Of a DNA stretch of 64,000 bases, positions 34,481-50,091 are shown one piece after another (position 1 is the first letter of the stretch; each line of letters starts with the position of its first letter). The DNA comes from a bacterium (GTDB lineage: Bacteria > 4484-113 > JAFGCY01). A program made the position numbers and the translations under genes. The stretch is from the NCBI GenBank assembly GCA_020440645.1, contig JAGRNR010000009.1, forward strand, positions 5,092 through 69,091, given 5' to 3'. Below the pieces are notes generated by a model. The model saw nothing but the letters and a program-made list of their open reading frames with translations, was not told the DNA's origin and ran no database searches.

Positions 34481-34943
34481 GCTGCACCTCCTCCACCGTT
34501 TCCGGCTCGTTGGCAGCACTGCCGCCCGCTCCTGCTGCGGCGATGTTGCGCAGCTGGGCATGGTGCCCGGGCGCCGTCACCACGAACCAGTAGAGGAAGC
34601 CGGGCAGCAACAGCAGCACCGGCCGCAGTGTGAACTGCAGTTCGTACTGCAGCCACAGCGAATACAGGCAGCCGCAGGCCGCGAAGCTCCACAGCAGGGA
34701 AGCGATGCCGGGCCGCCGCCTGAACCAGGGGTTGATCCAGGCCGCATTGCGCGCCGGCGTCAGCGGCAGCACCGCCAGCAGCAGGCCGATTGCCAGCAGG
34801 GCCAGCGGGCCGAACCACTGCGTTGTCAGCACGGGTGCCACTCCAAGCACGATGCGCAGGTACAGGCCCCAGGCCCCGGCGGCCACGAGCAGCAGCTCTC
34901 CGAGGAGATGCAGCAGGTTCTGGCTGGTTGACAGCATCCTCAT
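34473..34943 (-). CDS. Hypothetical small membrane protein (4 TM) encoded inside the nuo-like operon
   Basis: ORF 34473..35042. Start placed at the internal Met MRMLSTSQNLLHLLGELLLVAAGAWGLYL… whose ATG (34941-34943) overlaps the TGA of the nuoH-like gene (34940-34942). About 156 aa. No family recognised. Confidence 0.5.
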   Translation of the reverse strand: MRMLSTSQNLLHLLGELLLVAAGAWGLYLRIVLGVAPVLTTQWFGPLALLAIGLLLAVLPLTPARNAAWINPWFRRRPGIASLLWSFAACGCLYSLWLQYELQFTLRPVLLLLPGFLYWFVVTAPGHHAQLRNIAAAGAGGSAANEPETVEEVQHA

Positions 34944-36715
34944 CCGGTCCAGCTCACCTCCCGGCGGGGCTGCGGATGTCGGCGCTGCACGAACAGGATG
35001 CGCCAGGCCATCAGGAGGATGAACAGGCCGAAGAACAGGCACAGCACGTTGTAGCCCCAGAAGAAGGCCTTCTCGGGGACTGTCATCACCGCCAGTGCTT
35101 CAGCTGTTGTCAGCGTCTGGTACTGGGTGACGCGCTGCAGGGCGGTCACGTCGACATCGGAGACGGCCAGCTGGTTCGCGCTGAACCAGGGATGGCGGTT
35201 GACGACGCCGAGCGCGGTGGCCGCCATCACGACCACGCTGGCCGGCAGCAGGAACTTCCAGGAGAAGAACATGATCTGGTCCACGCGGATGCGCGGCATC
35301 GTGGAGCGCGCCCATATGAAGAAGAAGCACACGGCGTAGGTCTTCAGCAGGAACCAGAACAGGCTCGTCAGCCACAATCCGTCGGGGCCGAGGAACATCG
35401 GGCCCTTCCAGCCGCCGAAGAAGCAGACGGTCATGATCGCGCTGACGATGAACACGTTGGAGTACTCGGCGACATAGAACAGCGCGAAGCGCATCCCGCT
35501 GTACTCCACCAGGTAGCCGCCCAAGAGCTCGTTCTGCGCTTCCGGCAGGTCAAAGGGCGGGCGGTTGGTCTCGGCAAGGCTGACAACGAGGTAGATGATG
35601 AAGGCCGGGAACAGCGGCAGGATGCCCCAGGTCATCGTCTGGCGCTGCACGATCTCCGTCAGGTTCAGCGAACCGGCAAAGATGGCAACGCACAGCAGGC
35701 TCATCAGCATCGGGATTTCGTAGGTCAGCAGCATCGCGGCCTCGCGCATCGCGCCGACCAGTGCATATTTGTTGTTGGAGGCGTAGCCGGACATGATCAC
35801 GGCCACGAGGAACATCGCAAAGTCGGCGATGATCAGGAGCAGGCCGACATTCAGGTCCTGGATCATGTAGTAGATGATCTGCCCGTCGACAGCCGCCACG
35901 CCGAACGGGATCACCACCCAGCTCAGGAGCGCCGGCAGGTAGACGAGGATCGGCGCGATCAGGTACAGCAGCTTGTCAGCGCTGAGCGGAACGGTGTCTT
36001 CCTTGAAGAAGATCTTGATCGTGTCGTAGAAGCCCTGGCGCCAGTAGTAGCGCAGCATGTAGCTCATGTAGAGCACGAAGGCGACCACGGTGCACAGCAC
36101 GGTGAGCTGCGGCAAAAACGGGATGTGCGCCTTCGGGATGAAGCCCAGCAGGAGAGCGACGAGCATGCCACCGCAGGACGCGAGGGATGGCCAGGCCAGC
36201 AGTGACAGCAGCGTTGCCAGGAAGCGCCAGACGGAGGTCTGCGCGGCCTGCATCCGGCCGAGCGCTGGCAGGATCATCAAGCGGTTGATCAGCCCCATCA
36301 TGCCCACGGCGAAGAACAGGATGATCCAGCCGCCGAACTGTTGCCAGCCGGCGGTGCCGCCGGTCCAGTAGTTGATGCCGTACAGCAGCGCGGGCAGGCC
36401 GATCAGCACGCCGATCTGCAGGAAGATCCGCCGGAAGCGCTGCGGGGTGACCTCGCCGTACTCCTGCGGGCCGCGGCGGCCCTGCATGCGCGCCATCAGG
36501 CGGCGTTCCCAGACCTGCAGGCCGATGGTGATCATCAGCTCCAGGAGGAAGATCAGCAGGAGCGCCGTCACCAACATGATGCCGTTGGCAACCTCCGGGC
36601 TGAAGCGCAGGCCGGGCAGCGGCTCGGTGTTGAGCCAGGCGCGCATCGCCTCCCAGACGGTGCGGGCCTCGTCCATGTCGTAGCGCTGCTGCAGGATTGC
36701 CAGCATCGGGAGCAT
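34940..36715 (-). CDS. NuoH/ND1-like subunit with a ~150 aa polytopic insertion and a ~80 aa C-terminal extension
   Basis: ORF 34940..36793. Start placed at MLPMLAILQQ… whose ATG overlaps the nuoD-like TGA at 36715. NuoH motifs are present (…VWERRLMARMQGRRGP…; …DTIKIFFKEDTVP…; …ASNNKYALVGAMREAAMLLTYEI…; …RPPFDLPEAQNELLGGYLVEYSGMRFALFYVAEY…; …RIRVDQIMFFSWKFLLP…). About 150 residues with about 4 TM lie between the RRGP and IKIFFKED motifs, where E. coli NuoH has about 15 residues. Confidence 0.75.
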   Translation of the reverse strand: MLPMLAILQQRYDMDEARTVWEAMRAWLNTEPLPGLRFSPEVANGIMLVTALLLIFLLELMITIGLQVWERRLMARMQGRRGPQEYGEVTPQRFRRIFLQIGVLIGLPALLYGINYWTGGTAGWQQFGGWIILFFAVGMMGLINRLMILPALGRMQAAQTSVWRFLATLLSLLAWPSLASCGGMLVALLLGFIPKAHIPFLPQLTVLCTVVAFVLYMSYMLRYYWRQGFYDTIKIFFKEDTVPLSADKLLYLIAPILVYLPALLSWVVIPFGVAAVDGQIIYYMIQDLNVGLLLIIADFAMFLVAVIMSGYASNNKYALVGAMREAAMLLTYEIPMLMSLLCVAIFAGSLNLTEIVQRQTMTWGILPLFPAFIIYLVVSLAETNRPPFDLPEAQNELLGGYLVEYSGMRFALFYVAEYSNVFIVSAIMTVCFFGGWKGPMFLGPDGLWLTSLFWFLLKTYAVCFFFIWARSTMPRIRVDQIMFFSWKFLLPASVVVMAATALGVVNRHPWFSANQLAVSDVDVTALQRVTQYQTLTTAEALAVMTVPEKAFFWGYNVLCLFFGLFILLMAWRILFVQRRHPQPRREVSWTG

Positions 36716-37869
36716 CACTTGTCGACCTCCCCGATCATGATGTCGAGGCTGCCGTAGATCACGAACAGGTCCGCCAGCAGGTAGCCGCGGCACAGCTCGT
36801 CCAGCAGGAACAGGTGGTACAGGCTCGGCGCACGCAGGTGCATGCGGCTCGGGCGGTTGCTGCCGTCGCTGACGAGTGTCAGGCCGAGCTCGCCGCGCGG
36901 GCTCTCGACCGCCGTGTAGACCTCGCCGCGTGAGACCTGCATCGCAGCGAAGTCTGGGCTGACATCCGCCGCCCGCAGCTCGCCGTTGTCAATGTAAGCC
37001 AGGCAGTGCTCAATGATGCGCAGGCTCTCGCGCATCTCGACGAAGCGCACGCGGTAGCGGTCCAGCACATCGCCATACTCGCCGGTCGGCACATGCAGCT
37101 CCAGCTCGCCGTACATCGCATAGGGCTGGTCGCGGCGCAGGTCATGCGCGATCCCGCTGCCGCGCAGCACGGGCCCGGTGGCACCGTGCTCGAAGGCGAA
37201 CTCGGGCTCGAGCGTGCCGATCAGCTCGCTGCGGTTGACCCAGATCGCGTTGTCAGAGAAGAAGTCCTCGTATTCATCCAGCCGGCCCTGGAACCACAGG
37301 CAGAATGCCCGCACATGGCCGCTGAAGTCCTCCGGCGGGGCAGTGCGCACGCCGCCGGGCACGATCCAGCCGTGGTGGTGGCGGTGCCCGCTGAGCATCT
37401 CCAGCAGGTCGAGCAGCATCTCGCGCTCGCGCAGCGAGATGAAGATCGGGGTGTAGGCGCCGGCCTCCAGGCCGAGGTTGCCAAACCAGAACAGGTGGTT
37501 GCCGATCCGGCTCAGCTCCAGCACAAGGGTGCGCAGCCACTGCGCACGGGCCGGAACCGTGATCCCCTCGATGCGCTCGATGGCGTCCGCCACCAGCCAG
37601 TCCGCATTGCTGCCGGCCAGCCACTCGCAGCGGGACAACAGCCCCGCCGCCTGGGCGTAGTTGCGCTGGGTCACCAGCTGCTCCACGCCGCGGTGCATGA
37701 AGCCGACCTCCGGCGTGATGCGCTCGATCAGCTCGCCGTCCGCCTGTACCCGCAGTTCCAGCGGGCTCGGCAGGCTCGGATGCTGCGGGCCGACGGAGTA
37801 GACCAGCTTCTCGGTCAGCAGCGGGTCGCGGCGGATCTCGACACGGCGATCAGAGCTGCGCGTCATCAA
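36715..37869 (-). CDS. NuoD (49 kDa)-like subunit lacking quinone-site His/Tyr and any NiFe-binding cysteines
   Basis: GPQHPSLPSPLELRV… (canonical GPQHP.AHGV), …GFMHRGVEQL…, …RIGNHLFWFGN…, and C-terminal …YGSLDIMIGEVDK (complex-I-type ending, no CxxC). 384 aa. Overlaps the nuoC stop by ~20 nt. Confidence 0.85.
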   Translation of the reverse strand: MMTRSSDRRVEIRRDPLLTEKLVYSVGPQHPSLPSPLELRVQADGELIERITPEVGFMHRGVEQLVTQRNYAQAAGLLSRCEWLAGSNADWLVADAIERIEGITVPARAQWLRTLVLELSRIGNHLFWFGNLGLEAGAYTPIFISLREREMLLDLLEMLSGHRHHHGWIVPGGVRTAPPEDFSGHVRAFCLWFQGRLDEYEDFFSDNAIWVNRSELIGTLEPEFAFEHGATGPVLRGSGIAHDLRRDQPYAMYGELELHVPTGEYGDVLDRYRVRFVEMRESLRIIEHCLAYIDNGELRAADVSPDFAAMQVSRGEVYTAVESPRGELGLTLVSDGSNRPSRMHLRAPSLYHLFLLDELCRGYLLADLFVIYGSLDIMIGEVDK

Positions 37870-38434
37870 GCACCTCCCGCATCGCCGCGTCCGCGCGCTG
37901 TTTCAGCACGTTTTCAGCGTAGTTCTCATGTGAGGCAGCCCTGAACTCCCGCCTGAGCGGGAAGCCCTGCAGCTGCGGGTCGAGGATCAGGCCAATGAGG
38001 TTAGGGTTGCCGGCGAAGGGGATGCCGAAGAACTCGAAGATCTCGCGCTCCATCAGCTCCGTGGCCCGCCAGATCAGGCTCAGGCTGGGGTGCACGCTCT
38101 GCCCGGCATAGGCCGGCGCGGCCTCGCTGTCCTCCCCGCCCGGATCCGTTGCCGGGGGATTGCCCTCCAGCAGGGTGAATTTCCATTTCAGTGTGAGGCT
38201 GACGTCATGCCGCCTGCCGTGCCTGAGCGTCAGGTAGAGGTGGAAGTCCGGCCCGCCGAGGTGGTTGGCGGTCATGTTCAGCGCACGGATGAAGCCGATG
38301 TTCTTCAGCTGGCGGCAGACCAGCGGCAGCTGGCCGCTGTCCGTCAGGATCGCCCAGCCGCGGGCGGGGTCCAGCAGCAGCACATCACCGCAGTCCTCAC
38401 GGATCTGACCGGCAAGCTCATCAGGGAGCACCAA
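37850..38434 (-). CDS. NuoC (30 kDa)-like subunit
   Basis: …ELMEREIFEFFGIPFAGNPNLIGLILDPQLQGFPLRREF… matches the NuoC signature (E.E..E.FGI.F.GHP.L.R.L…G.PLRKDF). 194 aa. First gene after an AT-rich intergenic region. Confidence 0.8.
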   Translation of the reverse strand: MVLPDELAGQIREDCGDVLLLDPARGWAILTDSGQLPLVCRQLKNIGFIRALNMTANHLGGPDFHLYLTLRHGRRHDVSLTLKWKFTLLEGNPPATDPGGEDSEAAPAYAGQSVHPSLSLIWRATELMEREIFEFFGIPFAGNPNLIGLILDPQLQGFPLRREFRAASHENYAENVLKQRADAAMREVLDDAQL

Positions 38435-38656
38435 GTCCTCCCCATCCTGGCTGGATTACGGCAATCGGCATACAGGTATAAACGATCAAAAGCCCCACAG
38501 CGTTACCTTATACATACAAAATGCAAAGGCTTTTGTAATTCTAGCCGATGGGGCAGCGCTGATCACCGCCTGCAGGCAATTGGTTGAAGGGCGTGTGGGT
38601 CTGCCAGCCCAATTGTTAACAGCGGGAAAATCAAAGTAAAGTCCCGATTCAATTAG
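38435..38656. promoter_or_regulatory. AT-rich divergent intergenic region (promoters for the nuoC-led operon and the sensor-kinase unit)
   Basis: Low-GC stretch (…gtataaacgatcaaaagcc…ttatacatacaaaatgcaaaggcttttgtaattctag…gggaaaatcaaagtaaagtcccgattcaattagttgattcattatcttgcgag…) between divergent gene starts. Confidence 0.45.
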
Positions 38657-39025
38657 TTGATTCATTATCTTGCGAGCCTGGATAATTTCTATAATTCAAA
38701 TCGTCAGACCCAGTCTGTACCGGTTGAATTCAAGATTCCAGGTCAAGGCATGCCACAGCAGCATGAATTAATTACTGCAATCCTCGGACTTGGCGTGTTG
38801 TTGCTGATGATCGTGCAACGCCGCCAGCTGCGGCTCATCCCTGACTACCGCTGGCTGTTCCTCTCCTACTGCCTGATCCTGCTGGCCTGGCTGCTGACCA
38901 TTGCGGAAGATTACTGGCTGCCGGTCTACATGAACCTGCTGGAGCATATCTGTTACCTGGCCAGCGCAGCGCTGGTCGCCTGGTGGACACAGAAGTTCCT
39001 CAGAAGGGAAGCGCCACAGCAATGA
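38657..39025 (+). CDS. Small membrane protein (2-3 TM), translationally coupled to the downstream sensor kinase
   Basis: 122 aa. TM segments (LITAILGLGVLLLMIV; WLFLSYCLILLAWLLTIA; ICYLASAALVAWW). Its TGA (39023-39025) overlaps the ATG (39022-39024) of the next gene (caATGAgc). Confidence 0.5.
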   Translation: MIHYLASLDNFYNSNRQTQSVPVEFKIPGQGMPQQHELITAILGLGVLLLMIVQRRQLRLIPDYRWLFLSYCLILLAWLLTIAEDYWLPVYMNLLEHICYLASAALVAWWTQKFLRREAPQQ

Positions 39026-40836
39026 GCATGCTGCTGACGGTGTTTGACCTGCTGAGCCTGCTGGCCGTGCTGTCTGCACTGTGGCTGGCGGCAGCCAGGC
39101 GGATTGCCGGCCTGCGGCGTGACTACCTGTGGTGCCTGATCATCCTGCTGGTGGTGCTGGGTCTCAACTTCCTCAGCAACCTGCTGGACAACAGCGGGCT
39201 GAGCCCCTGGCTGGAGCGCTTCGAGGACTACCCCGGACTGCTGCAGCCGGTGTTCTGGGGCATCCTCCTGATGAGCCTGGTGCAGGACCGCGCCCTGCGC
39301 CGCACCGAGCTCTCTGAACAGCGGCTGCGCGGCCTGCTGGACGCGATGCGTGACGGGGTTGCCACTATTGACCCGGGTGGCGTGTTCCGCTTTGCCAACC
39401 CGGCGGCCGCGGAAATCCTCGGGGTTGCCCACGGCAGCCTTAGCGGCCGCAGTCTGGACGAGTTCTGGCTGGCTACCGAATCGCATACTTGCCGGATGCT
39501 GCCACATTCCCCGGGCCAGGATTACAGCGCCTACGAATGCGGCATCCGCCATGGCAGCGGCGACAGCCTCGTGCTGCTGCTGCAGGTCTCGCCGATCCCG
39601 GGCCAGCCCCGCCAGCGCCTGCTGTTCATGCATGATGTGACCCCGCTGCGCCGGGCCGAGCACAGCCTGCAGCAGGCCCAGGCCCAGCTCGGACAGGCCC
39701 AGCGGCTGGAGGCGATCGGCACGCTGGCCAGCGGCATCGCCCATGACTTCAACAACATCCTGTTCGCGATTTCCGGCAACAGCCAGATCGCGCTGGATAC
39801 TGAGGGACTGACCGTCGATGCGCGGGAGAGCCTGCGCGAGATCGACACCGCCAGCCGCCGCGCCTCCGACCTGGTGGCGCAGATCCTCAACTTCAGCCGC
39901 AGCGAGAAGAGCCGGACACGGGACCTGTTGCCACTTCCGGTTGTCAAGGAAGTGCTGCGCCTGCTGCGCTCCACCGTGCCGCCGCAGGTCAGCATCCAGC
40001 TCAGCCATGACGAATCGACGTGCCGGATCCATGCCGACCCGACCGACCTGCACCAGCTGCTGATGAACCTCTGCACCAATGCGATCCAGGAGATGGCGGT
40101 GGAGGGCGGGACGCTGCGGGTCCGGTTGGAGTGCAGCAATCCACCGCCGACACTGGCCGAGCGGGGAATGCTGCAGCCTAAACCACACCTGATGCTCAAG
40201 GTCAGTGACACGGGGGGCGGTATTCCACCGGATGCGCTGCCGCACATCTTCGAGCCCTTCTTCACGACCAAGCCAAGCGGTGAGGGCACCGGTCTAGGGC
40301 TGTTCGTTGTCAGCGGGATCGTCAAGCGCCTGCAGGGACAGATCGAGATTGACAGCGAACCGGGCCATGGCAGCAGCTTCACGGTCTGGCTGCCGCTGTC
40401 CAGCGGGGCCGCTGATGCCGACGATGCCGGGCCGGGGCAGGCCACCGGCCGCGGCCGGGGCCGGCTGCTGGTGGTTGACGACGAGCCGGCGGTCAACCGG
40501 GTGCTGGCGCTGATGCTCGGCCAGCTCGGCTACAAGGTGACAACCTATAGCGACAGCTACCGCGCGCTCAGTGAGTTCCAGACCAACCCGGAGCAGTACG
40601 ACCTGCTGCTGTGCGACATCTCGATGCCGGGCCTGCGCGGCGATGAACTGGTGAAGCGGATACGCTCCGTTCGCCCAGGCCTGCCGGTGGTGCTGTGCTC
40701 CGGCAATCCGGATGTTCTGCCTCCGGGCAGTGCAACTGAACTGGGTGTGCATGCAGTGCTTAAGAAACCGGTTGACAAGCCACAGCTGGCGGATTGCATC
40801 GCCGAGGCACTTGGCAGTAACCGTGCACAGGCCTGA
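39022..40836 (+). CDS. Hybrid sensor histidine kinase (TM sensor, PAS, HisKA, HATPase_c, C-terminal receiver)
   Basis: ORF 38983..40836. Start placed at MSMLLTVFDLL… (ATGA coupling). Two or three TM helices, PAS-like region (LLDAMRDGVATIDPGGVFRFANPAAAEILG…), H-box (LEAIGTLASGIAHDFNNIL), N/G boxes (LMNLCTNAIQEM…; DTGGGIP…FEPFFTTKPSGEGTGLGL) and a receiver (RLLVVDDEPAVNRVLALMLGQLGYKV…DLLLCDISMPGLRG). Confidence 0.85.
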   Translation: MSMLLTVFDLLSLLAVLSALWLAAARRIAGLRRDYLWCLIILLVVLGLNFLSNLLDNSGLSPWLERFEDYPGLLQPVFWGILLMSLVQDRALRRTELSEQRLRGLLDAMRDGVATIDPGGVFRFANPAAAEILGVAHGSLSGRSLDEFWLATESHTCRMLPHSPGQDYSAYECGIRHGSGDSLVLLLQVSPIPGQPRQRLLFMHDVTPLRRAEHSLQQAQAQLGQAQRLEAIGTLASGIAHDFNNILFAISGNSQIALDTEGLTVDARESLREIDTASRRASDLVAQILNFSRSEKSRTRDLLPLPVVKEVLRLLRSTVPPQVSIQLSHDESTCRIHADPTDLHQLLMNLCTNAIQEMAVEGGTLRVRLECSNPPPTLAERGMLQPKPHLMLKVSDTGGGIPPDALPHIFEPFFTTKPSGEGTGLGLFVVSGIVKRLQGQIEIDSEPGHGSSFTVWLPLSSGAADADDAGPGQATGRGRGRLLVVDDEPAVNRVLALMLGQLGYKVTTYSDSYRALSEFQTNPEQYDLLLCDISMPGLRGDELVKRIRSVRPGLPVVLCSGNPDVLPPGSATELGVHAVLKKPVDKPQLADCIAEALGSNRAQA

Positions 40837-40884
40837 CGGGCGGGCGCGTCAGTGCTTTGTGATATACATGGGGAGGAGGCAGGC

Positions 40885-41250
40885 ATGGCGAAGAAGAAGT
40901 TCGAGGATGTGGACCCGCAGGTGCTGGCGGCCTACATGAAGATGATCGGGGGCGTTGAAGGGGTCGAGGCCAAGGGGGCCGCCGCGCCGTACACCTCCCT
41001 GAATGGCAATATGTACTCCAGTATCTCGAAGTTCAACGAGATCGGCCTGCGGCTGGCGAAGGATGAGCGCGAGGCCTTCCTCGAGAAGTACGACACCCGG
41101 CTCTACCACTCCATCCCCGGATATGTGCAGCGGGAGTATGTCACCGTGCCGCCTGCACTGTTTGGCAACACACGCACTCTGCGCAGCTGGTTCCGGAAGT
41201 CCTACGACTACGTCTCATCACTGCCGGCGAAGCCCACGAAGAAGAAGTAG
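40885..41250 (+). CDS. Small soluble protein, possibly TfoX N-terminal-domain-like
   Basis: ORF 40852..41250. Likely start MAKKKFEDV…. Pattern …MIGGVEGV…LNGNMYSSIS…IGLRL…EREAFLEKY…REYVTVPPALFGNTRTLRSWFRKSYDYVSSL is loosely reminiscent of TfoX_N. Low confidence in the family. Confidence 0.4.
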   Translation: MAKKKFEDVDPQVLAAYMKMIGGVEGVEAKGAAAPYTSLNGNMYSSISKFNEIGLRLAKDEREAFLEKYDTRLYHSIPGYVQREYVTVPPALFGNTRTLRSWFRKSYDYVSSLPAKPTKKK

Positions 41251-41741
41251 CGGGAAGGATTTCGGCGCTCGCTTGTCGGCAGTAGCGGGCGCGCTTGGCG
41301 ACGCCATGGAGTGATTGCCGCGAAGCAATGAGTGATGGTGTGTTGGTCTGCAGACCAACAGGGCCCTGTGGCTCTCAAGAGCCACACTCCGCCGCGTGCG
41401 CGCAGCCACGCGGAAAGCCCCTCTGCAATGAGCAATGCGGAGCAAGCAATGAGCCCGACGACACTCATTGCCAGACTCTGCGGCTCTGCGTTCACCAATA
41501 TCGCTCCACCCCAGCCGCATTGCCAACCAAGTGCAGGCTAGCCTCAGCCCAGTCAAACTGGAGAATTGTCAACACAGAGCCACCGAGCGCACAGAGTTTT
41601 CTGATCAGCTCCAGTCCCCGCATTTCCCTGACTTCGCTGCATCCCCTCCCAATCGCGGCTGGGCCGCGCCGGTTCTTCCGGTAACCCTGACCCTTGTTCT
41701 TCAGGTTGACTGATTCACTGGGAAATCCGAGACGAGCCAGT
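41251..41741. other. ~490 bp non-coding spacer rich in palindromes/hairpins and a repeated CAATGAG heptamer
   Basis: Perfect 20-bp palindrome TGTTGGTCTGCAGACCAACA (~41338-41357). Adjacent 8+2+8 palindrome GTGGCTCT-CA-AGAGCCAC. CAATGAG occurs 3 times (…gcgaagcaatgagtgatgg…, …tctgcaatgagcaatgcgg…, …gcaagcaatgagcccgacgacactcattgcc…), the last forming a hairpin with CTCATTG. No ORF of significant length with coding character. Confidence 0.5.
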
Positions 41742-42539
41742 CTATGAATACAGAAGATCCTCAAAATCCTCCGTCAGCTCTCCATGGAAAGTAGGGTAGT
41801 CAACCCTCCGGACATTGCGCCGCCATGGTCGCGGCCCCAGCTCGCTGCTTGTAAGCAGCTTGAGGTGAAGCGGATCGACATCTGTTGCCAGGCTGCATTC
41901 CGATCCGATGATCCCGTCTTTGTCCATGAAGTCCGTGTTTGGCCAGATATTGAAACTGCGACCGGATGACGTCCGGATCGAAGTCGGATTGAAGCCCATG
42001 GCAATCTCCATGGCATTGTAGCTTTCCCTGCGGATATCCAGCGGCAGGGCAAACCTTGACTGCTCAACATGCGCTGCATCCGACAATGCAGACTCTCCCT
42101 TTTGCCATTCGGGAAGGGGCATCGAGGCACTCAGGATGACAAAGGCCTTCTCTTGCCAGACGCCCGCATGATCCCTGACACAGCATGGGAACATCAGCCA
42201 CTTCATCCGCCGTTGAAACGCCGCGAATCCCACGCTGCCAATGTTCAGCAGCAGTTCCGCAAGCACTTTCGCCGGTTTCTCCATACCGGCATCCCAGGAC
42301 CTGGCCTTATCCAGGCAGCCTGCCGGAATTCTGAGCAGAAATCCCGATGCATGATCGAGATACCAGTCGGCATTGCATCTGGTGCAGATGTGCAGGATTC
42401 CGCGTTGCCAGCTTTCCCTGCGGATGATGAGCTTGTGCAGTTTGAAGTATGGGGTTTCCTCCCGGACACTTGCAGGAGGATCAGGATCCCAGGGGAGTGA
42501 TTCCCTGACCTGACAAGGGCAGCTGGCCTTGATACTCAT
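41742..42539 (-). CDS. Hypothetical Cys-rich protein (N-terminal CxC…CxxC zinc-ribbon-like motif), third gene of the nuoA-nuoB-like operon. Lower GC than surroundings.
   Basis: 265 aa. MSIKASCPCQV…ICTRCNADW…MFPCCVRDH…. GC visibly lower (about mid-50s %) than the flanking ~65% DNA. Starts 20 nt after the nuoB-like stop on the same strand. Confidence 0.5.
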   Translation of the reverse strand: MSIKASCPCQVRESLPWDPDPPASVREETPYFKLHKLIIRRESWQRGILHICTRCNADWYLDHASGFLLRIPAGCLDKARSWDAGMEKPAKVLAELLLNIGSVGFAAFQRRMKWLMFPCCVRDHAGVWQEKAFVILSASMPLPEWQKGESALSDAAHVEQSRFALPLDIRRESYNAMEIAMGFNPTSIRTSSGRSFNIWPNTDFMDKDGIIGSECSLATDVDPLHLKLLTSSELGPRPWRRNVRRVDYPTFHGELTEDFEDLLYS

Positions 42540-42558
42540 GGTTCATGGTAATGCGATC

Positions 42559-43011
42559 CTACCGCCACGCAAACCGCTCATCCAGCGCACCCGAGAGGAT
42601 GCGCTCCCGGAGCGCGATGATGCCGTCGATCAGCTGCTCGGGCCGCGGCGGGTCGCCCGGCACATAGATGTCCACTGGTACGATGCGGTCCACTCCCCCG
42701 TCCACCGCATAGCTGCCGTCGAAGGGCGCGCCGCTGATCGCCCCCGCGCCAAACGCCATCACGAAGGCCGGGTCGGCCATCGAGGCATGCAGCCGGCGGA
42801 TCACCGGGGCCATCTTGTTGTTGACGACGCCGGCCACGATCAAAAGGTCCACCTGGCGCGGGCTGGGGCGCATCACCTCAGAGCCGAAGCGCGCGATGTC
42901 ATAGCGCGGCGAGATCGCGCTGAACAGTTCCAGCGTGGCGTAGTCCAGTCCGAGCATCAGCGGCCACAGGGAATGGGCACTGGCCTCGCGGATGAGGTCC
43001 TTCAGACCCAT
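42559..43011 (-). CDS. NuoB (PSST/20 kDa)-like subunit in which all four cysteine ligands of Fe-S cluster N2 are replaced
   Basis: …HSLWPLMLGLDYATLELFSA… (canonical …WP..FGL[A/S]CC..EMM…); …VDLLIVAGVVNNKMAPVIRRL…; …VMAFGAGAISGAPFDGSY… (canonical MG.CA.[S/N]GG…); …IVPVDIYVPGDPPRPEQL… (canonical PGCPP). Overall NuoB fold signatures are intact (ARFG.E..R.SPRQ.D; KMAP; PVD.Y.PG.PPRPE). 150 aa. Overlaps nuoA by 10 nt. Confidence 0.8.
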   Translation of the reverse strand: MGLKDLIREASAHSLWPLMLGLDYATLELFSAISPRYDIARFGSEVMRPSPRQVDLLIVAGVVNNKMAPVIRRLHASMADPAFVMAFGAGAISGAPFDGSYAVDGGVDRIVPVDIYVPGDPPRPEQLIDGIIALRERILSGALDERFAWR

Positions 43012-43400
43012 TCCAGCGCTCCCTTGCGGTAGGCATAGGCCCAGCCGACGAGCAGGATGCCGAGGAACACGAACATCTCGCCCAGTGAGGCGGCCCCGAT
43101 CGGCGTGAAGGTGATGTCGTCATTGCCGAACACCAGCAGCCGGAAAGCGGTGGCCCAGGGGAAGATGAACATGATGTCCACGTCGAACATGAGGAACACG
43201 ATCGCGAGGATGTAGAAGCGGATGTTGAAGCGCACCAGCGCATCGCCGGTGGCCTGCGCGCCGGATTCATAGCTCAGGCGCTTGAGGAAGTTCGGCCGCC
43301 GCGGACGCCACAGGTTCAGGAAAGCGAATGCCAGCCCGATCAGCACCGCCCCGCCCAGCAGGAAGAGTGCCACCCAGTTGTACTGTCCAACGGTGTTCAT
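43002..43400 (-). CDS. NuoA/ND3-like subunit
   Basis: …LSYESGAQATGDALVRFNIRFYILAIVFLMFDVDIMFIFPWAT…YRKGALEWV matches NuoA (YECG…F.[IV]RFY…A..F..FDVE..F..PWA; C-terminal KGALEW). 132 aa, 3 TM. Confidence 0.8.
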   Translation of the reverse strand: MNTVGQYNWVALFLLGGAVLIGLAFAFLNLWRPRRPNFLKRLSYESGAQATGDALVRFNIRFYILAIVFLMFDVDIMFIFPWATAFRLLVFGNDDITFTPIGAASLGEMFVFLGILLVGWAYAYRKGALEWV

Positions 43401-43453
43401 GTCTCACTTGCGGCAGCAGGCCGCTCCCTGATTATAGGCCAGAGCGGGCAGGC

Positions 43454-45553
43454 CTAGTTCACGGTGATGAACTTGTAGGCGATGCCCGTTTCCCCGAGCG
43501 AATCCGTCACCCGCACGGCAAGTGTGTAGAATCCGGGTGAGTTGAGGGTAGTGTTGATCGTGCTGTTCTCGAAGGTGGCTTCGAAGAAGCCGTCACCGTC
43601 CAGGTCATAGTCATAGATAACCGACAGCCCGTCCTCATCGTCCGAGCTCAGGCTGGCATCCAGCATTACCAGCACCGGTGCAAACCCAGTGTCCGGTGAT
43701 CCAGTCAGCACGGCGTTGGGCGGATGGTTCTCCAGACAGGTCAGCTTGTAGGCGCCCGGGCCGGTCTCGATGGCGGAACCGGGCACGAACACCTTCAGGT
43801 AGTAGCGCCCGGCGGCCGGCAGGCTGAAGTTGATGTATTCACGGTCCACGTTGTCAATCGATTCAATCAACGGAACGACCAGGTCTGACTCATGGTACAG
43901 AGCCAGTGAAAGGTCGACCGTCGCCGAACTGAAGTCCACCCAGAAGCTGGCGGTGGTGGCCCGGTCGGCATCGATCGCGTACCAGTCCTCGGTGTCGCTG
44001 CCGCCGACGCTAGCACTCCAGTCGCGGATATGCTTCGCGTAGTTGAGGAAACCGCCGAGGCTGTCCGCCTCCGTCTCGGCATTGTTGGGCTCAGTCTCCT
44101 GCGGGTCCACCCCGTTTGACACGATCACCTTCAGGCTGGCGGTGGCCTCCCGCTCACCACTGTCGGTGATGCGCACCGTTGGCGTGAATTCGCCGGGCAG
44201 CGTGTAGGTGATGTCACCACCGGGGTTCAGGCCGAGGTCATAGTCAAACGTGCCGTCACCCTCGAAGTCCCATTCGTACTTGACGATGTCATTGTCGGGG
44301 TCCACGAGGCCGCTGGTGTCGATGTAACGGATGATTCCGTTCTGCAGGCAGTAGTAGTCGATGCTCAGTTCAGCAGTGGGCGGGTTCTCACCGCTGATCG
44401 GCGTGATCGTGACATCCGTCGTGGCCGTGGCACTTTCCCCGAAGAAATCGATCACCATCACCCCGACGGTGAAGGTGCCGGCCTCGATGAATTCGCGGTA
44501 GGCGAAGGGGACCGGGGTCTGCAGCTCATGGAACCCGTCGTCGTCAAGGTCCCAGCGGTAATTGACGATGCCGCCATCCGGGTCCATGCTGTTGAAGGCG
44601 TCAAAGTTGATGGCCTGGGGCAGCGGACCGCCGTTCGGCAAGGCCACGATGTCCGCGATCGGTGGCAGGTTGCCCGGTTCACCGGTCACATTGATCGTGG
44701 CGGTGGCTTCGCCGGTGCCACCTTCGTTATCAACCACGCGCAGGGTGCAGGTGAAGGTGCCGACATGGTCGTAGTCGTGGCTGGGGGTCGGCCCGAGGTC
44801 ACCGGGTGTGAAGTAGATTGGGTCCTCGAATGACCAGTGGTACTCGGCGATCGTGCCATCCAGGTCGGAGCTGGCGGAGCCGTCAAACCCTGTGGTGAAG
44901 AAGTACTGGCCGCTGTCCTGGGCCACGGTGAAGCTGGCGGTCGGGGCGAAGTTGCCACCGAGCCGCACACGGGTCAGCTCGAAGCTGCCGCTGCCGGTCA
45001 GCAACACGCAGCAGTAGATCGCGTCGAAGTTCGAGAAATAGCCGTCCAGCGAGCCGAAGTCGAAGTGGTCATCGTCATTGCCAAGCTGCCATTTCCAGCG
45101 GCCGCTGCCGTAATCCGTGATGCCGACGTAGTACTCGCCGGAGTCCGGGCGCACGCCCCACTGCAGGTCGACCTGAGCCTCCCTTGCGAATCCCGGCAGG
45201 TGGTAACCGTAGATGCCCCAGCTCACATCCAGCTTCGGCGGGTTGGCGGCGGGGTCCCAGTCCGGGGCCATCAGCAGGCTGTCCCCGAACACGATCGCAT
45301 TCTCGCGGCTGCCGGGCGTGATGATCTCCGCACCCTTGCGGATGTAGTCCGCCGGTGTATCACTGAAGCTGCGCCCAACGGCGGGCAGCTCGGCCGGGGC
45401 TGGAAGCTGGGCAAGCAGGTCCTGCGGCAGTTCAACCGGACCGGACTGGCGCTCAGGCGTGGCAGCCTTTTCCTGCAGGTTGGCAGCGCCGGATGAACAG
45501 GCTGCCAGGCAGAATAGGCAGCCTGCCAGCAGAAGGGCAAATGAAGCACGCAT
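43454..45553 (-). CDS. Lipoprotein of a tandem paralogous family: conserved N-terminal domain, PKD repeats, C-terminal PPC (pre-peptidase C-terminal) domain
   Basis: Lipobox LLAGCLFCLAACSSG. Family N-domain (…SFSDTPADYIRKG…LLMAPDWDPAANPP…VSWGIYGYHLPGF…). Several PKD-like units (…YHWSFEDPIYF…; …YRWDLDDDGFHE…; …YEWDFEGDGTFD…; …YDYDLDGDGFFE…). PPC-like segment (ETEPNN…DWYAID…GRYYLKVF…GAYKLT). Confidence 0.8.
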   Translation of the reverse strand: MRASFALLLAGCLFCLAACSSGAANLQEKAATPERQSGPVELPQDLLAQLPAPAELPAVGRSFSDTPADYIRKGAEIITPGSRENAIVFGDSLLMAPDWDPAANPPKLDVSWGIYGYHLPGFAREAQVDLQWGVRPDSGEYYVGITDYGSGRWKWQLGNDDDHFDFGSLDGYFSNFDAIYCCVLLTGSGSFELTRVRLGGNFAPTASFTVAQDSGQYFFTTGFDGSASSDLDGTIAEYHWSFEDPIYFTPGDLGPTPSHDYDHVGTFTCTLRVVDNEGGTGEATATINVTGEPGNLPPIADIVALPNGGPLPQAINFDAFNSMDPDGGIVNYRWDLDDDGFHELQTPVPFAYREFIEAGTFTVGVMVIDFFGESATATTDVTITPISGENPPTAELSIDYYCLQNGIIRYIDTSGLVDPDNDIVKYEWDFEGDGTFDYDLGLNPGGDITYTLPGEFTPTVRITDSGEREATASLKVIVSNGVDPQETEPNNAETEADSLGGFLNYAKHIRDWSASVGGSDTEDWYAIDADRATTASFWVDFSSATVDLSLALYHESDLVVPLIESIDNVDREYINFSLPAAGRYYLKVFVPGSAIETGPGAYKLTCLENHPPNAVLTGSPDTGFAPVLVMLDASLSSDDEDGLSVIYDYDLDGDGFFEATFENSTINTTLNSPGFYTLAVRVTDSLGETGIAYKFITVN

Positions 45554-45675
45554 CTTTATTCCTCACTGCGCCCGGATACTCTCCAGCAAGCTGGAGGGGC
45601 AGCACAGAATTCTAACTGAAAGAATCACCAAACTGAGCTTCGCGGCAAGCAGGTCCCAGCTACCCCTGGCACGGT

Positions 45676-47790
45676 TCAAATGGGTAAGGCAGTTACTATG
45701 ACGAAGTCTGTATCCGCGAGGCCCCACTCATCGATTACGCGCACGCTGACGACGATTGCACCGGGTACTGTGATCTGCGTGTCATAGGTGGGCTGGAACT
45801 GGCCGGTCACTTCAAAGATCCCGTCACCGTCGACATCAAACTGGTATTCAGTGATGTAGCCCATCTCAACTGTGCTGGCAGATGCATCCAGCGAAATGTC
45901 AAATGGAACCGACCCAACGAGCGGATCAGCGGACAAAGCGGCGTGCGGGCCGTCATAGTTGCGGCAGCGGAATGTGTAGTCACCGGGGCCCTTCGCCAGT
46001 GCTGAGGGATCTATGCTCACACGGATCAGGTACTGGCCGGCGGAGGGCAGCACGAACTTGAGGATTTCACTATCCAAGATGCCGTGTGCGCTGGCCAATG
46101 GGTTGTCGGTGTCGCCGGCGGAATACAGGTCCAGGCGCATGTCTATCTCGCTGCGGAGGAAATCCGCGACGAACGCCACTGGACCGCTGCGGTCGGATTC
46201 GAAGGAGTACCAGTCCGCGCTGTCGCCGCCGCCCTCATCCAGTGAGCCCTTCCAGTTGCAGATCCCCTTGGAGTAGTTCATGAAGCCGGTGAACTCCTCG
46301 GCCTCGCCCGGGGTACCGTTGGGTTCAGTTTCAGCCAAGCCGGAATTCGGCCCGATCCGCAGCGGTATGCTGGCAACGTCTGTCCGGCCGCCGCTGTCCG
46401 TCACGCGGAATGTCGCGTTGAAAGTCTGCCCTGTCTGGGCATAGGTCGCAACGAATTCCTCACCGGGGGCGAAAGAATAATCGAATATGCCATCACCCTC
46501 CAGGTCCGTCTCGAACGAGACGATGTCATTGTCGGGGTCGCTGCTCTCGCTCCAGTCTATCCTGAAGGCACCCGGTGAGTTGAAGCTGTAGTCGGACTTG
46601 ACGACGATGGTCGGCGGCTCAGTACCATCAACCGGGTCAATCACCACCGTGGTTGAGGCGGTGCTAAAGCTGCCCTGGTTGTCAATCGCCATCACGGACA
46701 CCTCATAGCTGCCGGGTACGGCGAAGAACCACTTCTGCACGGCACTGCCAAAAACCTCGAAATGCCCGTCTCCGTCGAAGTCGAAACGGTAGCCGGCTAT
46801 CGAGCCGTCCGTGTCGCTGCTGCCGCTGCAGTCGAAGTTGATCCACTGCGGGACCGGTCCACCGCTGGTGTCAGGCACGATCGAGGCAAGCGGTGCAGCG
46901 TTGCCATCCACCAGGGCGACCGAAATCGGGATGCTGAGCTCGGCGGTGGCTCCCTCATTGTCCGTCAGGCGCAGTGTGCAGGTGTACTCGCCCGCGTGGT
47001 CGTAAGTCCAGAAAACCACCGGGGCCGGGTACCGGAAATCCGTGTAGACCGGATCCTCCATTGACCATTCGTAGCCTGCAATGCTGCCGTCCGGATCGTG
47101 GCAACCCGAGGCGTCGAACTGGACCTCCAGAGAGCCTGTTCCACTGGTCTGGTTCGGGATCAGGCTGGCCACGGGCGGCAGGTTCTCCCCCAGACGCAGC
47201 CGGCTGAGATTGAAGTTGCCCTTGTCCGCGACCAGGATGGTGAAATAGATGTCGCCATTCCCGGAGAAGTAGCCGTCAAGGCTACCGAAATCAATGATGT
47301 CCTGATCCGTGCCCTGGAACCATTGCCAGCGATTGCTGCTGAAGTCGCTGACACCGATGTAGTGGCGCGCTCCGTCCGGCCTGGGGCCTTCCCACAGTAC
47401 CTGCAGTTCCGGCTGGCGCTGGAAATCAGTGATGTTGAAACCTTAAATCGCCCAGCTCAGCTCACGTGTCGGCGGCTCGGCCACGGGCTCGTAATCAGCA
47501 ACCATCACAAGCATGTTCCCGACAATGCTCGCATTGGCGAATGCATCAGGCTGATAAGTCTGATATCCATCCCGCAGGAAGTCCTCCGGGACATTGCTGG
47601 CGCTGCGCTGCTGCTGAGGCAGGCTGTCCAGTCCCGGCAGCCCGTCAGCCAGCGAGGGACTGAGCTGTACAGCCTCAGCCTGCGCGGAAACGGGCAGGTC
47701 AGCCGCCTGCTCCGGATGGGCCGGCTGGCTGCTGCATGAAGCCGCGAGCAGCAGGCAGCCTGCGCACGCGATGGCGAGAAGAGCTTTCAT
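45676..47790 (-). pseudogene. Paralog of the PKD/PPC lipoprotein family interrupted by a single in-frame TAA (Tyr codon position). Candidate pseudogene or sequencing error.
   Basis: ORFs 47443..47790 (signal peptide + N-domain start, ends …LSWAI*) and 45676..47172 are in the same frame. Reading through the TAA at 47443-47445 gives …LSWAI*GFNITDFQRQPELQVLWEGPRPDG…LRLGENLPPVASLIPNQTSGTG…, colinear with paralogs (…LSWGIYGFNIADY…). Only one stop separates the two parts. Confidence 0.7.
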
Positions 47791-47903
47791 CTTTATTCCT
47801 TGAACCTGCCTGGTTCCTTATGGCAGTGCAGGAGGCTGGGAAAATTCTACTCGATCAGTCTCAATCATTGACTTTCCCAGTAAAGCAATCCGCCAGCGAT
47901 CAT

Positions 47904-49997
47904 TCAGGGGGCGATGCCCGTCACTGTCACCGTGGCGATTGACTCCATTCCCAGCATGTCCTGTACCTTGACGCCGAGCTCCTGCGGTCCTTCCCAGCTG
48001 ACGGTGCCAGTACCGAGCCATCCGCCGGGCTCGCTCTCGAAGATCCCGTCGCCATCCATGTCAAAGAAGTAGATCAGGCCCTCCAGGTAACGGTCATAGC
48101 TGCGGCCCGCGTTGAGCACAACCTCGGTCCCCGTCTCCACTACCGTTGCGGAGGCCGTGACAAAAGCCACCGGCTTGGAGGGGTCCCAGAAGTCCAGCTT
48201 GTAGCCGCTGTCCTGCCCGGCCTCGCCTGCCTGCTTCGTGAACACGCGCAGGAAGTAGTCCCCCGGCGCCGTAATGAGAACGGACATAAACTCGTTGTCG
48301 GTATCCGAGTAGCTGAAGAACAGCGGGTTCACCAGGTCAAGAGGGCTGTACATCTCAATGTCCATGTCCATGAAACTGTGCGTGAAGATCAGGTTGAACC
48401 ACAGCTGGCCGTTGTGCGCGGCATGGATCACATACCAGTCCTCGGTATCCTCAGCGAACTTGAGCTGGCCGGGAAAGTCGCGCACCCGCACACACTCGTT
48501 GCCAAAACTGCCCAGGCTGATCGCCGTCTCCGGGCTGTCATTCGGTTCTACCTCCGGCTGGCCGGAGAATGGCGTGACCATCACTGGACAGGTTGCCGTG
48601 TCACTGCGTCCGCCGCTGTCAGTGACCCTCACGGCGACGTTGAACACGCCGCCATCCTGGGAATAGGTCACGTTATTCACGGGATCGAGCCCTGAATCAA
48701 CGTCGAACGTGCCGTCACCCTCGAAGTCCCATTCGTACTTCACGATGTCATTGTCAGGGTCATAGGATCCCTGTGCGGTGAAGTACCGTGCACCCGCAGT
48801 GTTGTCATACCAGTAGACGGCCTCCAGCTTTGCCACCGGAGGCTCCGTGCCCTCCACGGGCAGCACCTCGATCTGCATCGTGGCCGTGTCGACGGCACCG
48901 AACTCATCAATCACCATCACGCTGGGGTTGTAGGTGCCGGCTGCGATGTACAGAGCCTTGAACACCGGGCTGCCAAAAGTGAACTGCTCGAAGTACCCGT
49001 CCTCGTCAATGTCCCAGCGGAATGTCATGAAACCGTTCTCCGGATCCGTGCTGTCCTGTGCATTGAGCGTGACGGAAAGCGGAACCAGGCCGGATACCAC
49101 ATCAGATTCAGAGTAGATATCGGCCACAGGCGGGTCATTGCCAGGCACGGCGGTGACGCTGATCGGAATGACAAATTCCGTCATTCCGCCTTCGAGGTCA
49201 TGCGCCCTGCCTATGCAGTCGTACTCGCCGACATGGTCATACTCCCAGTACAGGAACGGACCGGCGGGCTCGAAGATCGGCCCACCCTCGGCGGACCATT
49301 CAAAGAAGGTCAGAGTGCCATCCGGATCGTAGCTGGCTGAGGCATCGATGTTGACCGTCAGCTTGCCCTGGCCGCTGTCGTTGTCAATCGTGTAGTCGAT
49401 CACGGGCGGGAAGTTGCCGCCGAGGCGCAGCCTGCTGAAGGTGAACTGGCCCTCCGTTGCCAGCAGCACCACCACATACAGGTCGCCGTTGGCAGAGAAA
49501 TAGTCAGCCAGCCCCGGGAAGTCCACGGTCCCGTCCGCCGTACCCTGGCGCCACTGCCAGTGTCCGCTGGAGTAATCACTGACCCCGATGTAGATGCCGG
49601 AGCTGGCGGGCGCAGTGCCATTCCACTTTGCCTGGATCTCCGTGCCGCGCTGGTAGTCTGCGATGTTGAAACCGTAGATCCCCCAGCTCAGTCCATGCAT
49701 CGGCGGGTCGCCCTGCGGATCATAGGTCGGGCTCATCGAGAGCTTGTCACCGGTCACCTCGGCATTCATCTTCGCCGATACCTTGTAGATGTCGGCTCCC
49801 GTGCGGATGCAGGCTTCCGGCGTATTGCTGGTACTGCGCTGCATGGCAGGCAGGGCAGAAATGGCCGGCAGCTGCGATTCAAGCTGCGGCAGGACAGCGT
49901 CGCCTGCCGGTTGGTTTACCTGGCCGCCACTTCCGCTGGAGCAGGCTGCCAGCAGCAGCATCGCTCCGGCCAGCAGGCCACTGAGCTGTCTGAACAT
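47904..49997 (-). CDS. Lipoprotein of the same tandem family (N-domain + PKD repeats + PPC domain)
   Basis: Lipobox LLLAACSSGSGG. …RSTSNTPEACIRTG…LSWGIYGFNIADYQRG…. Repeated …F.WD.DEDGYFE…/…YEWDFEGDGTFD… PKD units. C-terminal …EPNDSPETAISLG…DWYVIHAAHNG…GDYFLRVF… PPC-like domain. Confidence 0.8.
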   Translation of the reverse strand: MFRQLSGLLAGAMLLLAACSSGSGGQVNQPAGDAVLPQLESQLPAISALPAMQRSTSNTPEACIRTGADIYKVSAKMNAEVTGDKLSMSPTYDPQGDPPMHGLSWGIYGFNIADYQRGTEIQAKWNGTAPASSGIYIGVSDYSSGHWQWRQGTADGTVDFPGLADYFSANGDLYVVVLLATEGQFTFSRLRLGGNFPPVIDYTIDNDSGQGKLTVNIDASASYDPDGTLTFFEWSAEGGPIFEPAGPFLYWEYDHVGEYDCIGRAHDLEGGMTEFVIPISVTAVPGNDPPVADIYSESDVVSGLVPLSVTLNAQDSTDPENGFMTFRWDIDEDGYFEQFTFGSPVFKALYIAAGTYNPSVMVIDEFGAVDTATMQIEVLPVEGTEPPVAKLEAVYWYDNTAGARYFTAQGSYDPDNDIVKYEWDFEGDGTFDVDSGLDPVNNVTYSQDGGVFNVAVRVTDSGGRSDTATCPVMVTPFSGQPEVEPNDSPETAISLGSFGNECVRVRDFPGQLKFAEDTEDWYVIHAAHNGQLWFNLIFTHSFMDMDIEMYSPLDLVNPLFFSYSDTDNEFMSVLITAPGDYFLRVFTKQAGEAGQDSGYKLDFWDPSKPVAFVTASATVVETGTEVVLNAGRSYDRYLEGLIYFFDMDGDGIFESEPGGWLGTGTVSWEGPQELGVKVQDMLGMESIATVTVTGIAP

Positions 49998-50091
49998 GCG
50001 CTTGTCCTCGCACTTTACCGGGTTCCGTCCGCACAGATTCTAACCCAGGACAAACCAGGACAAGCAGTTGCATCGCAGTCCGGCCTGCAGC

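What the first reader, a model, noticed from the sequence alone, without database searches (positions are those of the whole stretch)
41742..42539. Cys-rich, lower-GC ORF transcribed immediately downstream of the N2-less nuoB
The 265-aa protein begins with a CxC…(42 aa)…CxxC arrangement (MSIKASCPCQ…ICTRCNADW) plus a CC pair (FPCCVRDH). It sits 20 nt after nuoB on the same strand. Its GC content is visibly lower than the surrounding genes, which suggests horizontal acquisition. A metal-binding protein co-expressed with cofactor-less NuoA/B homologues is an intriguing candidate accessory or regulatory subunit.
Basis: seen in the sequence. Interest (0 to 1): 0.55.

Follow-up and report, generated by a model that had tools for sequence, protein, structure and literature searches.

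The report
Foreign zinc-ribbon gene inside nuo operon
The ORF is a real gene from an undescribed, patchily distributed bacterial protein family with a zinc-ribbon front end; it was inserted by horizontal transfer between nuoB and nuoC in one planctomycete lineage and shows no sign of being a dedicated partner of the iron-sulfur-less complex I-like enzyme.

Summary
Window 41742-42539 (-) encodes a 265-aa protein starting 19 nt after an N2-less nuoB. It has C7-x-C9, then 42 residues, then C52-xx-C55, and a P118-C119-C120 motif. Its GC (0.557), GC3 (0.645) and CAI lie about 2.2 sd below the window's other ORFs.

It is a real gene. An exhaustive HMMER scan found 190 homologues (64 at E<=1e-10). 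It keeps all five invariant family residues. It has diverged 1.4% from a sister strain, against 6.3% for the adjacent spacer. An alignment-based AlphaFold2 model is confident (pLDDT 88, pTM 0.86).

The family (CxxC, about 41 aa, CxxC, then an alpha/beta domain of about 170 aa) matches nothing in Pfam, NCBIfam, PHROGs, PADLOC, PDB sequences or PDB/BFVD folds.

The accessory-subunit idea is not supported. None of 31 family loci from other phyla carries nuo genes. All five relatives of this N2-less nuo cluster lack the gene. No neighbour recurs.

Best reading: a horizontally acquired stand-alone gene of unknown biochemistry, carried along on the nuoAB transcript. Modest interest.

The parts
41742..42539 (-). 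ORF265: a 265-aa soluble protein, member of an undescribed family (N-terminal Cys4-type zinc ribbon plus an alpha/beta domain of about 170 aa)
   Evidence: ORF. 190 homologues at E<=1e-3. Invariant residues kept. AlphaFold2 pLDDT 88, pTM 0.86. dN/dS 0.24. 1.4% divergence against 6.3% in the spacer.
42513..42521 (-). First zinc knuckle, C7-P-C9. This is CxC here; it is CxxC in 83 of 100 family members that have a complete N-terminus.
42375..42386 (-). Second zinc knuckle, C52-T-R-C55. C52 is invariant and C55 at least 90% conserved. It lies at the turn between predicted strands 47-52 and 58-62.
42183..42188 (-). P118-C119. P118 is invariant and C119 at least 90% conserved.
41982..42008 (-). E178-IAMGFNPT-186, the local version of the family's most conserved motif, E-x-R-M-G-F-A-P-T
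42540..42558 (-). 19-nt nuoB-ORF265 spacer, identical in the sister strain. It has no obvious Shine-Dalgarno sequence and no terminator.
42559..43011 (-). nuoB homologue lacking all four cluster-N2 cysteines
43002..43400 (-). nuoA homologue, first gene of the nuoA-nuoB-ORF265 unit
41251..41741 (.). 491-nt convergent spacer between the 3' ends of ORF265 and the TfoX_N-like gene. GC is about 0.57-0.60. Twin GC-rich hairpins without T-runs lie at 41336-41406. It is 6.3% diverged from the sister strain.
   Evidence: no Rfam match
40852..41250 (+). TfoX_N-like gene (below Pfam threshold: 27 bits against a 30.1 cutoff), convergent with ORF265. Together with ORF265 it separates nuoB from nuoC in both strains.
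38558..40874 (+). 2.3-kb segment absent from the sister genome. It holds a 122-aa low-GC ORF and a PAS-HisKA-HATPase-REC hybrid kinase, a second strain-specific insertion at the same nuoB/nuoC gap.
37850..38434 (-). nuoC homologue, first gene of the now separate nuoC-D-H-...-J-K-L-M unit

Best explanation
ORF265 is an intact, selected protein-coding gene from an undescribed and rare bacterial family of about 250 aa. The family has an N-terminal Cys4-type zinc ribbon (CxxC, about 41 aa, CxxC; CxC in this copy). This is followed by an alpha/beta domain of about 170 aa with conserved W82, P118-C119, P141, S161, R170, E178 and an E-x-RMGFAPT loop.

The family is soluble, stands alone with no conserved partner gene, and is scattered across unrelated phyla, usually among small unannotated ORFs of atypical GC.

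In the lineage of this window and Planctomycetales bacterium CP060262 the gene landed between nuoB and nuoC, which are ancestrally contiguous. It landed 19 nt behind nuoB, so it is most likely transcribed as a passenger on the nuoA-nuoB mRNA (inferred). nuoC and the genes after it are now a separate unit.

It is not a conserved component of the Fe-S-less complex I-like (Ehr-type) enzyme.

Most likely mode of action (inferred, low confidence): a cytosolic protein whose structural zinc ribbon scaffolds or anchors a C-terminal domain. That domain's conserved polar residues (Cys119, Ser161, Arg170, Glu178) would form a ligand- or partner-binding, or catalytic, site. Its function belongs to the flexible 'island' gene pool rather than to respiration.

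Shown: gene reality, family membership, the Cys signature, foreign composition, and lack of linkage to nuo.
Inferred: zinc binding, co-transcription, and biochemical role.
For: Real gene:
- 190 homologues at E<=1e-3 and 64 at E<=1e-10 in an exhaustive HMMER scan.
- tblastn with ORF265 itself hits 29 of 31 family loci.
- All 5 invariant and 10 of 11 near-invariant columns are kept, with D254 replaced by E.
- Against the sister strain there are 11 substitutions in 798 nt, compared with 31 in the 491-nt spacer (Fisher p = 2.4e-6). Six are synonymous and five non-synonymous, giving omega 0.24.
- AlphaFold2 with the family alignment gives pLDDT 88 and pTM 0.86.

Zinc ribbon:
- 83 of 100 N-terminally complete members have CxxC about 41 residues before the invariant CxxC.
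- The second knuckle sits at a predicted beta-hairpin turn.

Foreign origin:
- GC, GC3 and CAI z-scores are about -2.2.
- Homologues occur in Verrucomicrobiota, Gammaproteobacteria (Pseudomonadales, Rhodanobacter, Dyella, Pseudaeromonas, Shewanella), Alphaproteobacteria, Terriglobales and Clostridiaceae.
- The best non-strain homologue is 32% identical.

Not nuo-linked:
- None of 31 family loci (236 kb) has nuoA/B/C/D/H or the TfoX-like gene.
- Five relatives with 67-74% identical NuoB, N2-less where aligned (three of them), lack any family member in six-frame HMM searches.
- Three of those five have nuoB and nuoC adjacent or overlapping.
- No neighbour family recurs across independent loci.
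Against: - The gene is tightly packed behind nuoB, with a 19-nt gap that is identical in both strains, and it is under purifying selection. A lineage-specific recruitment to the complex therefore cannot be excluded.
- Two other relatives also carry unrelated small genes at the nuoB/nuoC junction. This site might tolerate or even favour lineage-specific add-ons.
- Only about 13 independent family loci had enough flank to judge context.
- Zinc binding and the C-terminal 'site' are inferred from sequence and a predicted model. I could not inspect the model's coordinates.
- The AlphaFold database could not be searched, so a structural relative with a known function may exist.
Confidence: 0.75

Rival explanations
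1. Lineage-specific accessory, assembly or regulatory subunit of the Fe-S-less complex I-like (Ehr-type) enzyme. This is the first reader's idea: the zinc or Cys site would dock onto or regulate the cofactor-less NuoB/NuoD module.
For: Same strand, 19 nt after nuoB, no terminator in between. Retained under purifying selection in two strains. Two other relatives carry other small ORFs at the same junction, one overlapping the nuoB stop codon, so add-on genes at this position are not unique.
Against: None of 31 family loci elsewhere carries nuo genes. None of 5 related N2-less nuo clusters carries the family. The inserts in relatives are unrelated hydrophobic proteins. Composition is foreign. 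The insertion physically splits the operon, together with a convergent TfoX_N-like gene and, in this strain, a histidine kinase.
Confidence: 0.07
2. A conflict-system gene (anti-phage defence component, or an immunity or antitoxin-like protein) that travels with variable genomic islands. This would specify the unknown biochemistry and is compatible with the passenger scenario.
For: Homologues often sit in same-strand runs of small ORFs without Pfam matches and with atypical GC. Occasional neighbours are Fic, SLATT_5 and a DpnII/MboI-type REase fusion, NTP_transf_2 and ankyrin-repeat proteins. One locus lies near a tRNA gene.
Against: No PADLOC or PHROG match for ORF265 or for 68 family members. 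No recurrent partner, toxin or effector. No hits on phages, plasmids or viral contigs. The many invariant polar residues are unusual for fast-evolving immunity proteins. No conflict genes flank it in this window.
Confidence: 0.15
3. Spurious ORF or decaying pseudogene in a low-GC spacer.
For: Weak host-type codon bias (GC3 0.645, CAI 0.436). No annotation anywhere. The single-sequence AlphaFold2 model is poor. An ORF this long arises in 0.4% of shuffles.
Against: 190 homologues. Conserved motifs intact. 4.5-fold slower divergence than the adjacent spacer. Confident alignment-based model.
Confidence: 0.02

Closest known systems
Zinc-ribbon (Cys4) domains, for example the Pfam Zn_ribbon families (TFIIB-type, Elf1, IS1595, Lar)
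   Same: Two Cys knuckles (CxxC ... CxxC). The second lies at a predicted beta-hairpin turn. Single family members give marginal hits to several zinc-ribbon models.
   Different: The spacing is long (about 41 aa). This copy has CxC in the first knuckle. The remaining 190 aa or so match nothing. No zinc-ribbon Pfam model reaches threshold on ORF265.
Accessory genes of Ehr/Mbx/complex I-like operons (energy-converting-hydrogenase-related complexes, as described in PMC6349859)
   Same: The gene lies inside a nuo-like cluster whose NuoB lacks the N2 ligands, and is probably co-transcribed with nuoAB.
   Different: It is not conserved with the complex in any relative examined. Its homologues occur only outside nuo contexts.
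Unannotated 'DUF-like' cargo genes of variable genomic islands
   Same: Patchy phyletic distribution, atypical GC, no conserved neighbours, single copy per locus.
   Different: Here the insertion site is the middle of a respiratory operon rather than an island. No integrase, tRNA, attC or IS marks the insertion.

Membership tests
Zinc ribbon (Cys4) | Two CxxC-type knuckles supplying four Cys ligands | tested here: met
   C7-x-C9 and C52-xx-C55. The family norm is CxxC, about 41 aa, CxxC in 83 of 100 complete members. The first knuckle is the rarer CxC variant in this copy.
Zinc ribbon (Cys4) | Knuckles at beta-hairpin turns of a small antiparallel sheet | tested here: inconclusive
   DSSP on the AlphaFold2 model puts C52/C55 between strands 47-52 and 58-62, but the first knuckle is modelled next to a short helix.
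Zinc ribbon (Cys4) | Binds one Zn(II) | not testable with these tools
   Needs metal analysis of purified protein.
Accessory subunit of the Ehr / complex I-like enzyme | Co-occurs with the complex's genes across genomes | tested here: not met
   None of 31 family loci has nuo genes. None of 5 related N2-less nuo clusters has the family.
Accessory subunit of the Ehr / complex I-like enzyme | Physically associates with the complex | not testable with these tools
   Needs co-purification or complexome profiling.
Any described protein family (Pfam-A, NCBIfam, PHROGs, PADLOC, PDB) | Significant profile, sequence or fold match | tested here: not met
Anti-phage defence or toxin-immunity gene | Conserved adjacency to an effector, toxin or other system component | tested here: not met
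   All-against-all BLAST of neighbours from 29 loci finds no recurrent partner outside near-identical strains.
Integron gene cassette | Flanking attC sites (R''...R' cores with a folded stem) | tested here: not met
   A pattern-plus-folding scan of 13 family loci found no arrays, only 5 isolated matches.
NuoB (context gene) with cluster N2 | Four conserved Cys ligands (CC ... C ... C) | tested here: not met
   Replaced by DY, G and D in the alignment to 2fug_6. The same replacements occur in relatives L023-L025.

The most novel reading that the evidence does not exclude
Probability: 0.06. Interest if true: 0.6.

Novelty: new member of a known kind. Interest (0 to 1): 0.27.

Why it matters
The Fe-S-less nuo-like cluster is conserved across this clade. 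ORF265 is a foreign passenger that arrived recently at its nuoB/nuoC junction. Anyone modelling the subunit composition of this Ehr-type complex should not count ORF265 as a component without biochemical evidence.

Separately, the work defines an undescribed protein family: about 190 clusters at 50% identity, a zinc ribbon plus a domain with no sequence or PDB-fold relatives, and a sharp E-x-RMGFAPT motif. That would justify a DUF entry and a structure determination. There are many such families, however, and nothing yet points to an unusual function.

Tried and rejected
- The word-indexed protein search with the single sequence and with the family profile found only the sister-strain copy and two fragments. 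The exhaustive HMMER scan was needed.
- The search for related loci with the 68-sequence alignment failed because it had no conserved stretch. A motif-selected sub-alignment worked.
- The single-sequence AlphaFold2 model was useless, at pLDDT 32.
- T6SS effector-immunity hypothesis for the Shewanella, Rhodanobacter and Dyella loci: the large upstream genes turned out to be DUF5682/VWA (YehM/YehP-like by my own recollection), phosphoesterase, AcrB and DnaE. They are not VgrG or Rhs.
- Integron-cassette hypothesis: no attC arrays and no Rfam hit.
- Phage or plasmid carriage: no hits.
- Domain fusions in the longer family members: only extra N-terminal zinc ribbons, nothing informative.
- Mobile-element signatures around ORF265: no flanking repeats and no tRNA, and no Rfam RNA in 38300-43600.
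- Literature: no paper mentions the motif in any relevant context (the one text match was a gene-set software paper), and none mentions the sister genome.

Full report
**1. The observation**

The ORF listing gives a 265-aa ATG-initiated ORF at 41742-42539 on the minus strand. Its translation has Cys at residues 7, 9, 52, 55, 75, 119, 120 and 215.

The upstream gene (42559-43011, minus strand) is a NuoB homologue (Pfam Oxidored_q6 1.8e-19; NCBIfam NuoB 5e-48). The gap between the two is 19 nt. Aligned to T. thermophilus Nqo6 (2fug_6), the four N2 ligands are replaced: CC by DY, C by G, and C by D.

GC drops to 0.56-0.57 over 41400-42599, against 0.64-0.68 in the nuo genes on either side. Among 45 candidate ORFs of the window, ORF265 ranks 3rd, 2nd and 3rd lowest for GC, GC3 and CAI, with z of -2.15, -2.26 and -2.14.

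**2. Is it a gene?**

Length alone is weak evidence: a stop-free run of at least 265 codons appears in 19 of 5000 shuffles of the low-GC island. Three other lines are decisive.

- *Homology.* The word-indexed search saw only a 98%-identical protein from Planctomycetales bacterium CP060262.1. An exhaustive HMMER scan of 1.84 billion cluster representatives found 190 homologues at E<=1e-3 and 64 at E<=1e-10. They are mostly 220-300 aa, 24-35% identical, and cover residues 40-220. tblastn with ORF265 alone hits 29 of 31 family loci fetched later.
- *Selection.* The sister genome is 97.5% identical across this region. ORF265 carries 11 substitutions in 798 nt, 6 synonymous and 5 non-synonymous (omega 0.24; binomial p = 0.03 against neutrality). 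The adjacent 491-nt spacer carries 31 (Fisher p = 2.4e-6).
- *Structure.* AlphaFold2 with the 68-sequence family alignment gives pLDDT 88 and pTM 0.86. The single sequence gives 32.

**3. What the family looks like**

The alignment has invariant G47, C52, W82, P118 and R170. Columns conserved at 90% or more are C55, W59, I100, G101, C119, P141, S161, L165, E178, P185 and D254. ORF265 keeps all of these except for D254, which is E.

Of 100 members with a complete N-terminus, 83 have a CxxC knuckle, most often 41 residues before the invariant CxxC. Only two, including ORF265, have CxC.

P118-C119 is a family feature; C120 is not. The strongest motif is E-x-R-M-G-F-A-P-T (E-I-A-M-G-F-N-P-T here). 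Some members carry an extra N-terminal CxxC...CxxC ribbon, and no other domain fusion was found.

**4. Is it tied to the nuo-like complex?**

*From the ORF265 side.* Family loci came from Verrucomicrobiota, Pseudomonadales, Rhodanobacter, Dyella, Pseudaeromonas, Terriglobales, Clostridiaceae, Alphaproteobacteria, Shewanella and metagenomes. None of these 31 loci (236 kb) has nuoA, B, C, D or H, or the TfoX-like gene. No neighbour family recurs across independent loci.

*From the nuo side.* I examined five clusters whose NuoB is 67-74% identical to this one; the three whose NuoB I aligned are likewise N2-less. Three have nuoB and nuoC adjacent or overlapping (L023, L024, L042). Two carry other inserts, small hydrophobic proteins of 164, 170 and 172 aa that are unrelated to ORF265 (L025, L043). 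The family HMM finds nothing in six-frame translations of all five.

The association is therefore confined to two near-identical strains. There, ORF265 plus a convergent TfoX_N-like gene split nuoAB from nuoC-D-H-...-J-K-L-M. This window has acquired a further 2.3 kb at the same gap, holding a 122-aa ORF and a hybrid histidine kinase (38558-40874).

**5. Origin**

Four lines point to horizontal acquisition from an unsampled donor, with little amelioration:

- atypical composition;
- absence from the syntenic site in relatives;
- patchy distribution across phyla;
- a nearest outside homologue at 32% identity.

I found no integrase, IS, flanking repeat, tRNA or attC marking the event. The family is not on known phages, plasmids or viral contigs.

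**6. How it most likely works**

*Shown:* a soluble protein of about 30 kDa with a Cys4-type signature and a conserved C-terminal domain. It is stand-alone and not nuo-linked.

*Inferred:*
- The 19-nt gap has no terminator or promoter match, and hairpins appear only 60-400 nt downstream of the stop codon. This makes ORF265 the third cistron of a nuoA-nuoB-ORF265 transcript.
- The ribbon binds structural zinc.
- The conserved Cys119, Ser161, Arg170 and Glu178-RMGFAPT residues form a binding or catalytic site.

In other genomes the gene tends to sit in runs of small, Pfam-less, atypical-GC ORFs. Occasional neighbours are Fic, SLATT_5, REase-fusion, NTP_transf_2 and ankyrin genes. That hints at the flexible or conflict gene pool, but no partner is conserved and PADLOC is silent. 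I give this sub-hypothesis only about 0.15.

The accessory-subunit reading gets about 0.07. What keeps it alive is tight packing behind nuoB, purifying selection, and the fact that other relatives also host small genes at this junction.

**7. Comparison and verdict**

In Ehr-type complexes (relatives of group 4 hydrogenases that lack the Ni-Fe ligands; PMC6349859) partner proteins remain an open question.

ORF265 is best filed as a new member of the large class of undescribed, horizontally mobile hypothetical-protein families. It has a recognisable zinc-ribbon front end and a C-terminal domain with no known relatives. Interest is modest (0.27). The family merits a DUF entry and a structure, and the nuo-cluster annotation should not count it as a subunit.

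Noticed in passing
window 38558-40874: A 2.3-kb segment is absent from the otherwise 94-97.5% identical sister genome CP060262.1. It holds a 122-aa low-GC (0.53) ORF with no Pfam match and a PAS-HisKA-HATPase_c-REC hybrid histidine kinase, lying between the TfoX_N-like gene and nuoC. This is a second strain-specific insertion at the same nuoB/nuoC gap.
   Followed up: partly
window 34940-45553 compared with L001: Synonymous divergence from the sister strain changes stepwise near ORF265. dS is 0.03-0.06 for the PKD gene, nuoA, nuoB and ORF265, but 0.15-0.29 for TfoX-like, nuoC, nuoD and nuoH. This suggests a recombination boundary at or near the insertion site.
   Followed up: no
window 33485-35042 (-); also L001, L023, L024, L025, L042: The slot where nuoI would be expected, between nuoH and nuoJ, holds two Pfam-less ORFs (189 aa and 358 aa). 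A comparable pair of about 145-165 aa and 325-385 aa is conserved in relatives. Together with the N2-less NuoB, this suggests the whole cluster encodes a complex I-like enzyme without the usual Fe-S chain. NuoD ligands were not examined.
   Followed up: partly
L025 7587-8737 and 10681-11226; L043 4487-5005: Two of five related N2-less nuo clusters carry different small hydrophobic ORFs inside the operon. L025 has 164-aa and 170-aa ORFs between nuoB and nuoC and a 181-aa ORF between nuoD and nuoH. L043 has a 172-aa ORF overlapping the nuoB stop codon. They are unrelated to ORF265 and show no significant similarity to each other by BLAST (best E = 0.13). These could be lineage-specific membrane add-ons.
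   Followed up: partly
window 42020-42035 and 42410-42425: An exact 16-nt direct repeat lies inside ORF265 (AGCTTTCCCTGCGGAT on the + strand). It encodes I-R-R-E-S twice, at residues 38-42 and 168-172. Both copies are present in the sister strain. R170 is a family-invariant residue; the first copy lies in a non-conserved stretch. Unexplained.
   Followed up: no
window 41336-41406: Three adjacent GC-rich hairpins, without T-runs, lie in the convergent spacer between ORF265 and the TfoX_N-like gene: GCUGCG...CGCGGC, GUGGCUCU...AGAGCCAC and UUGGUCUG...CAGACCAA. They may be bidirectional transcription stops. There was no Rfam match.
   Followed up: partly
window 43454-52914 (-): A tandem array of four large PKD-domain paralogues (699, 498, 697 and 940 aa), with lipoprotein-like or signal-like N-termini, lies immediately upstream of nuoA. 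The array is conserved in the sister genome, and one relative (L025) also has a PKD_4 protein next to nuoA.
   Followed up: no
window 57978-60308 (+): A 776-aa ankyrin-repeat protein has GC3 as low as ORF265 (0.649; CAI 0.451). It is another compositionally atypical gene in the window.
   Followed up: no
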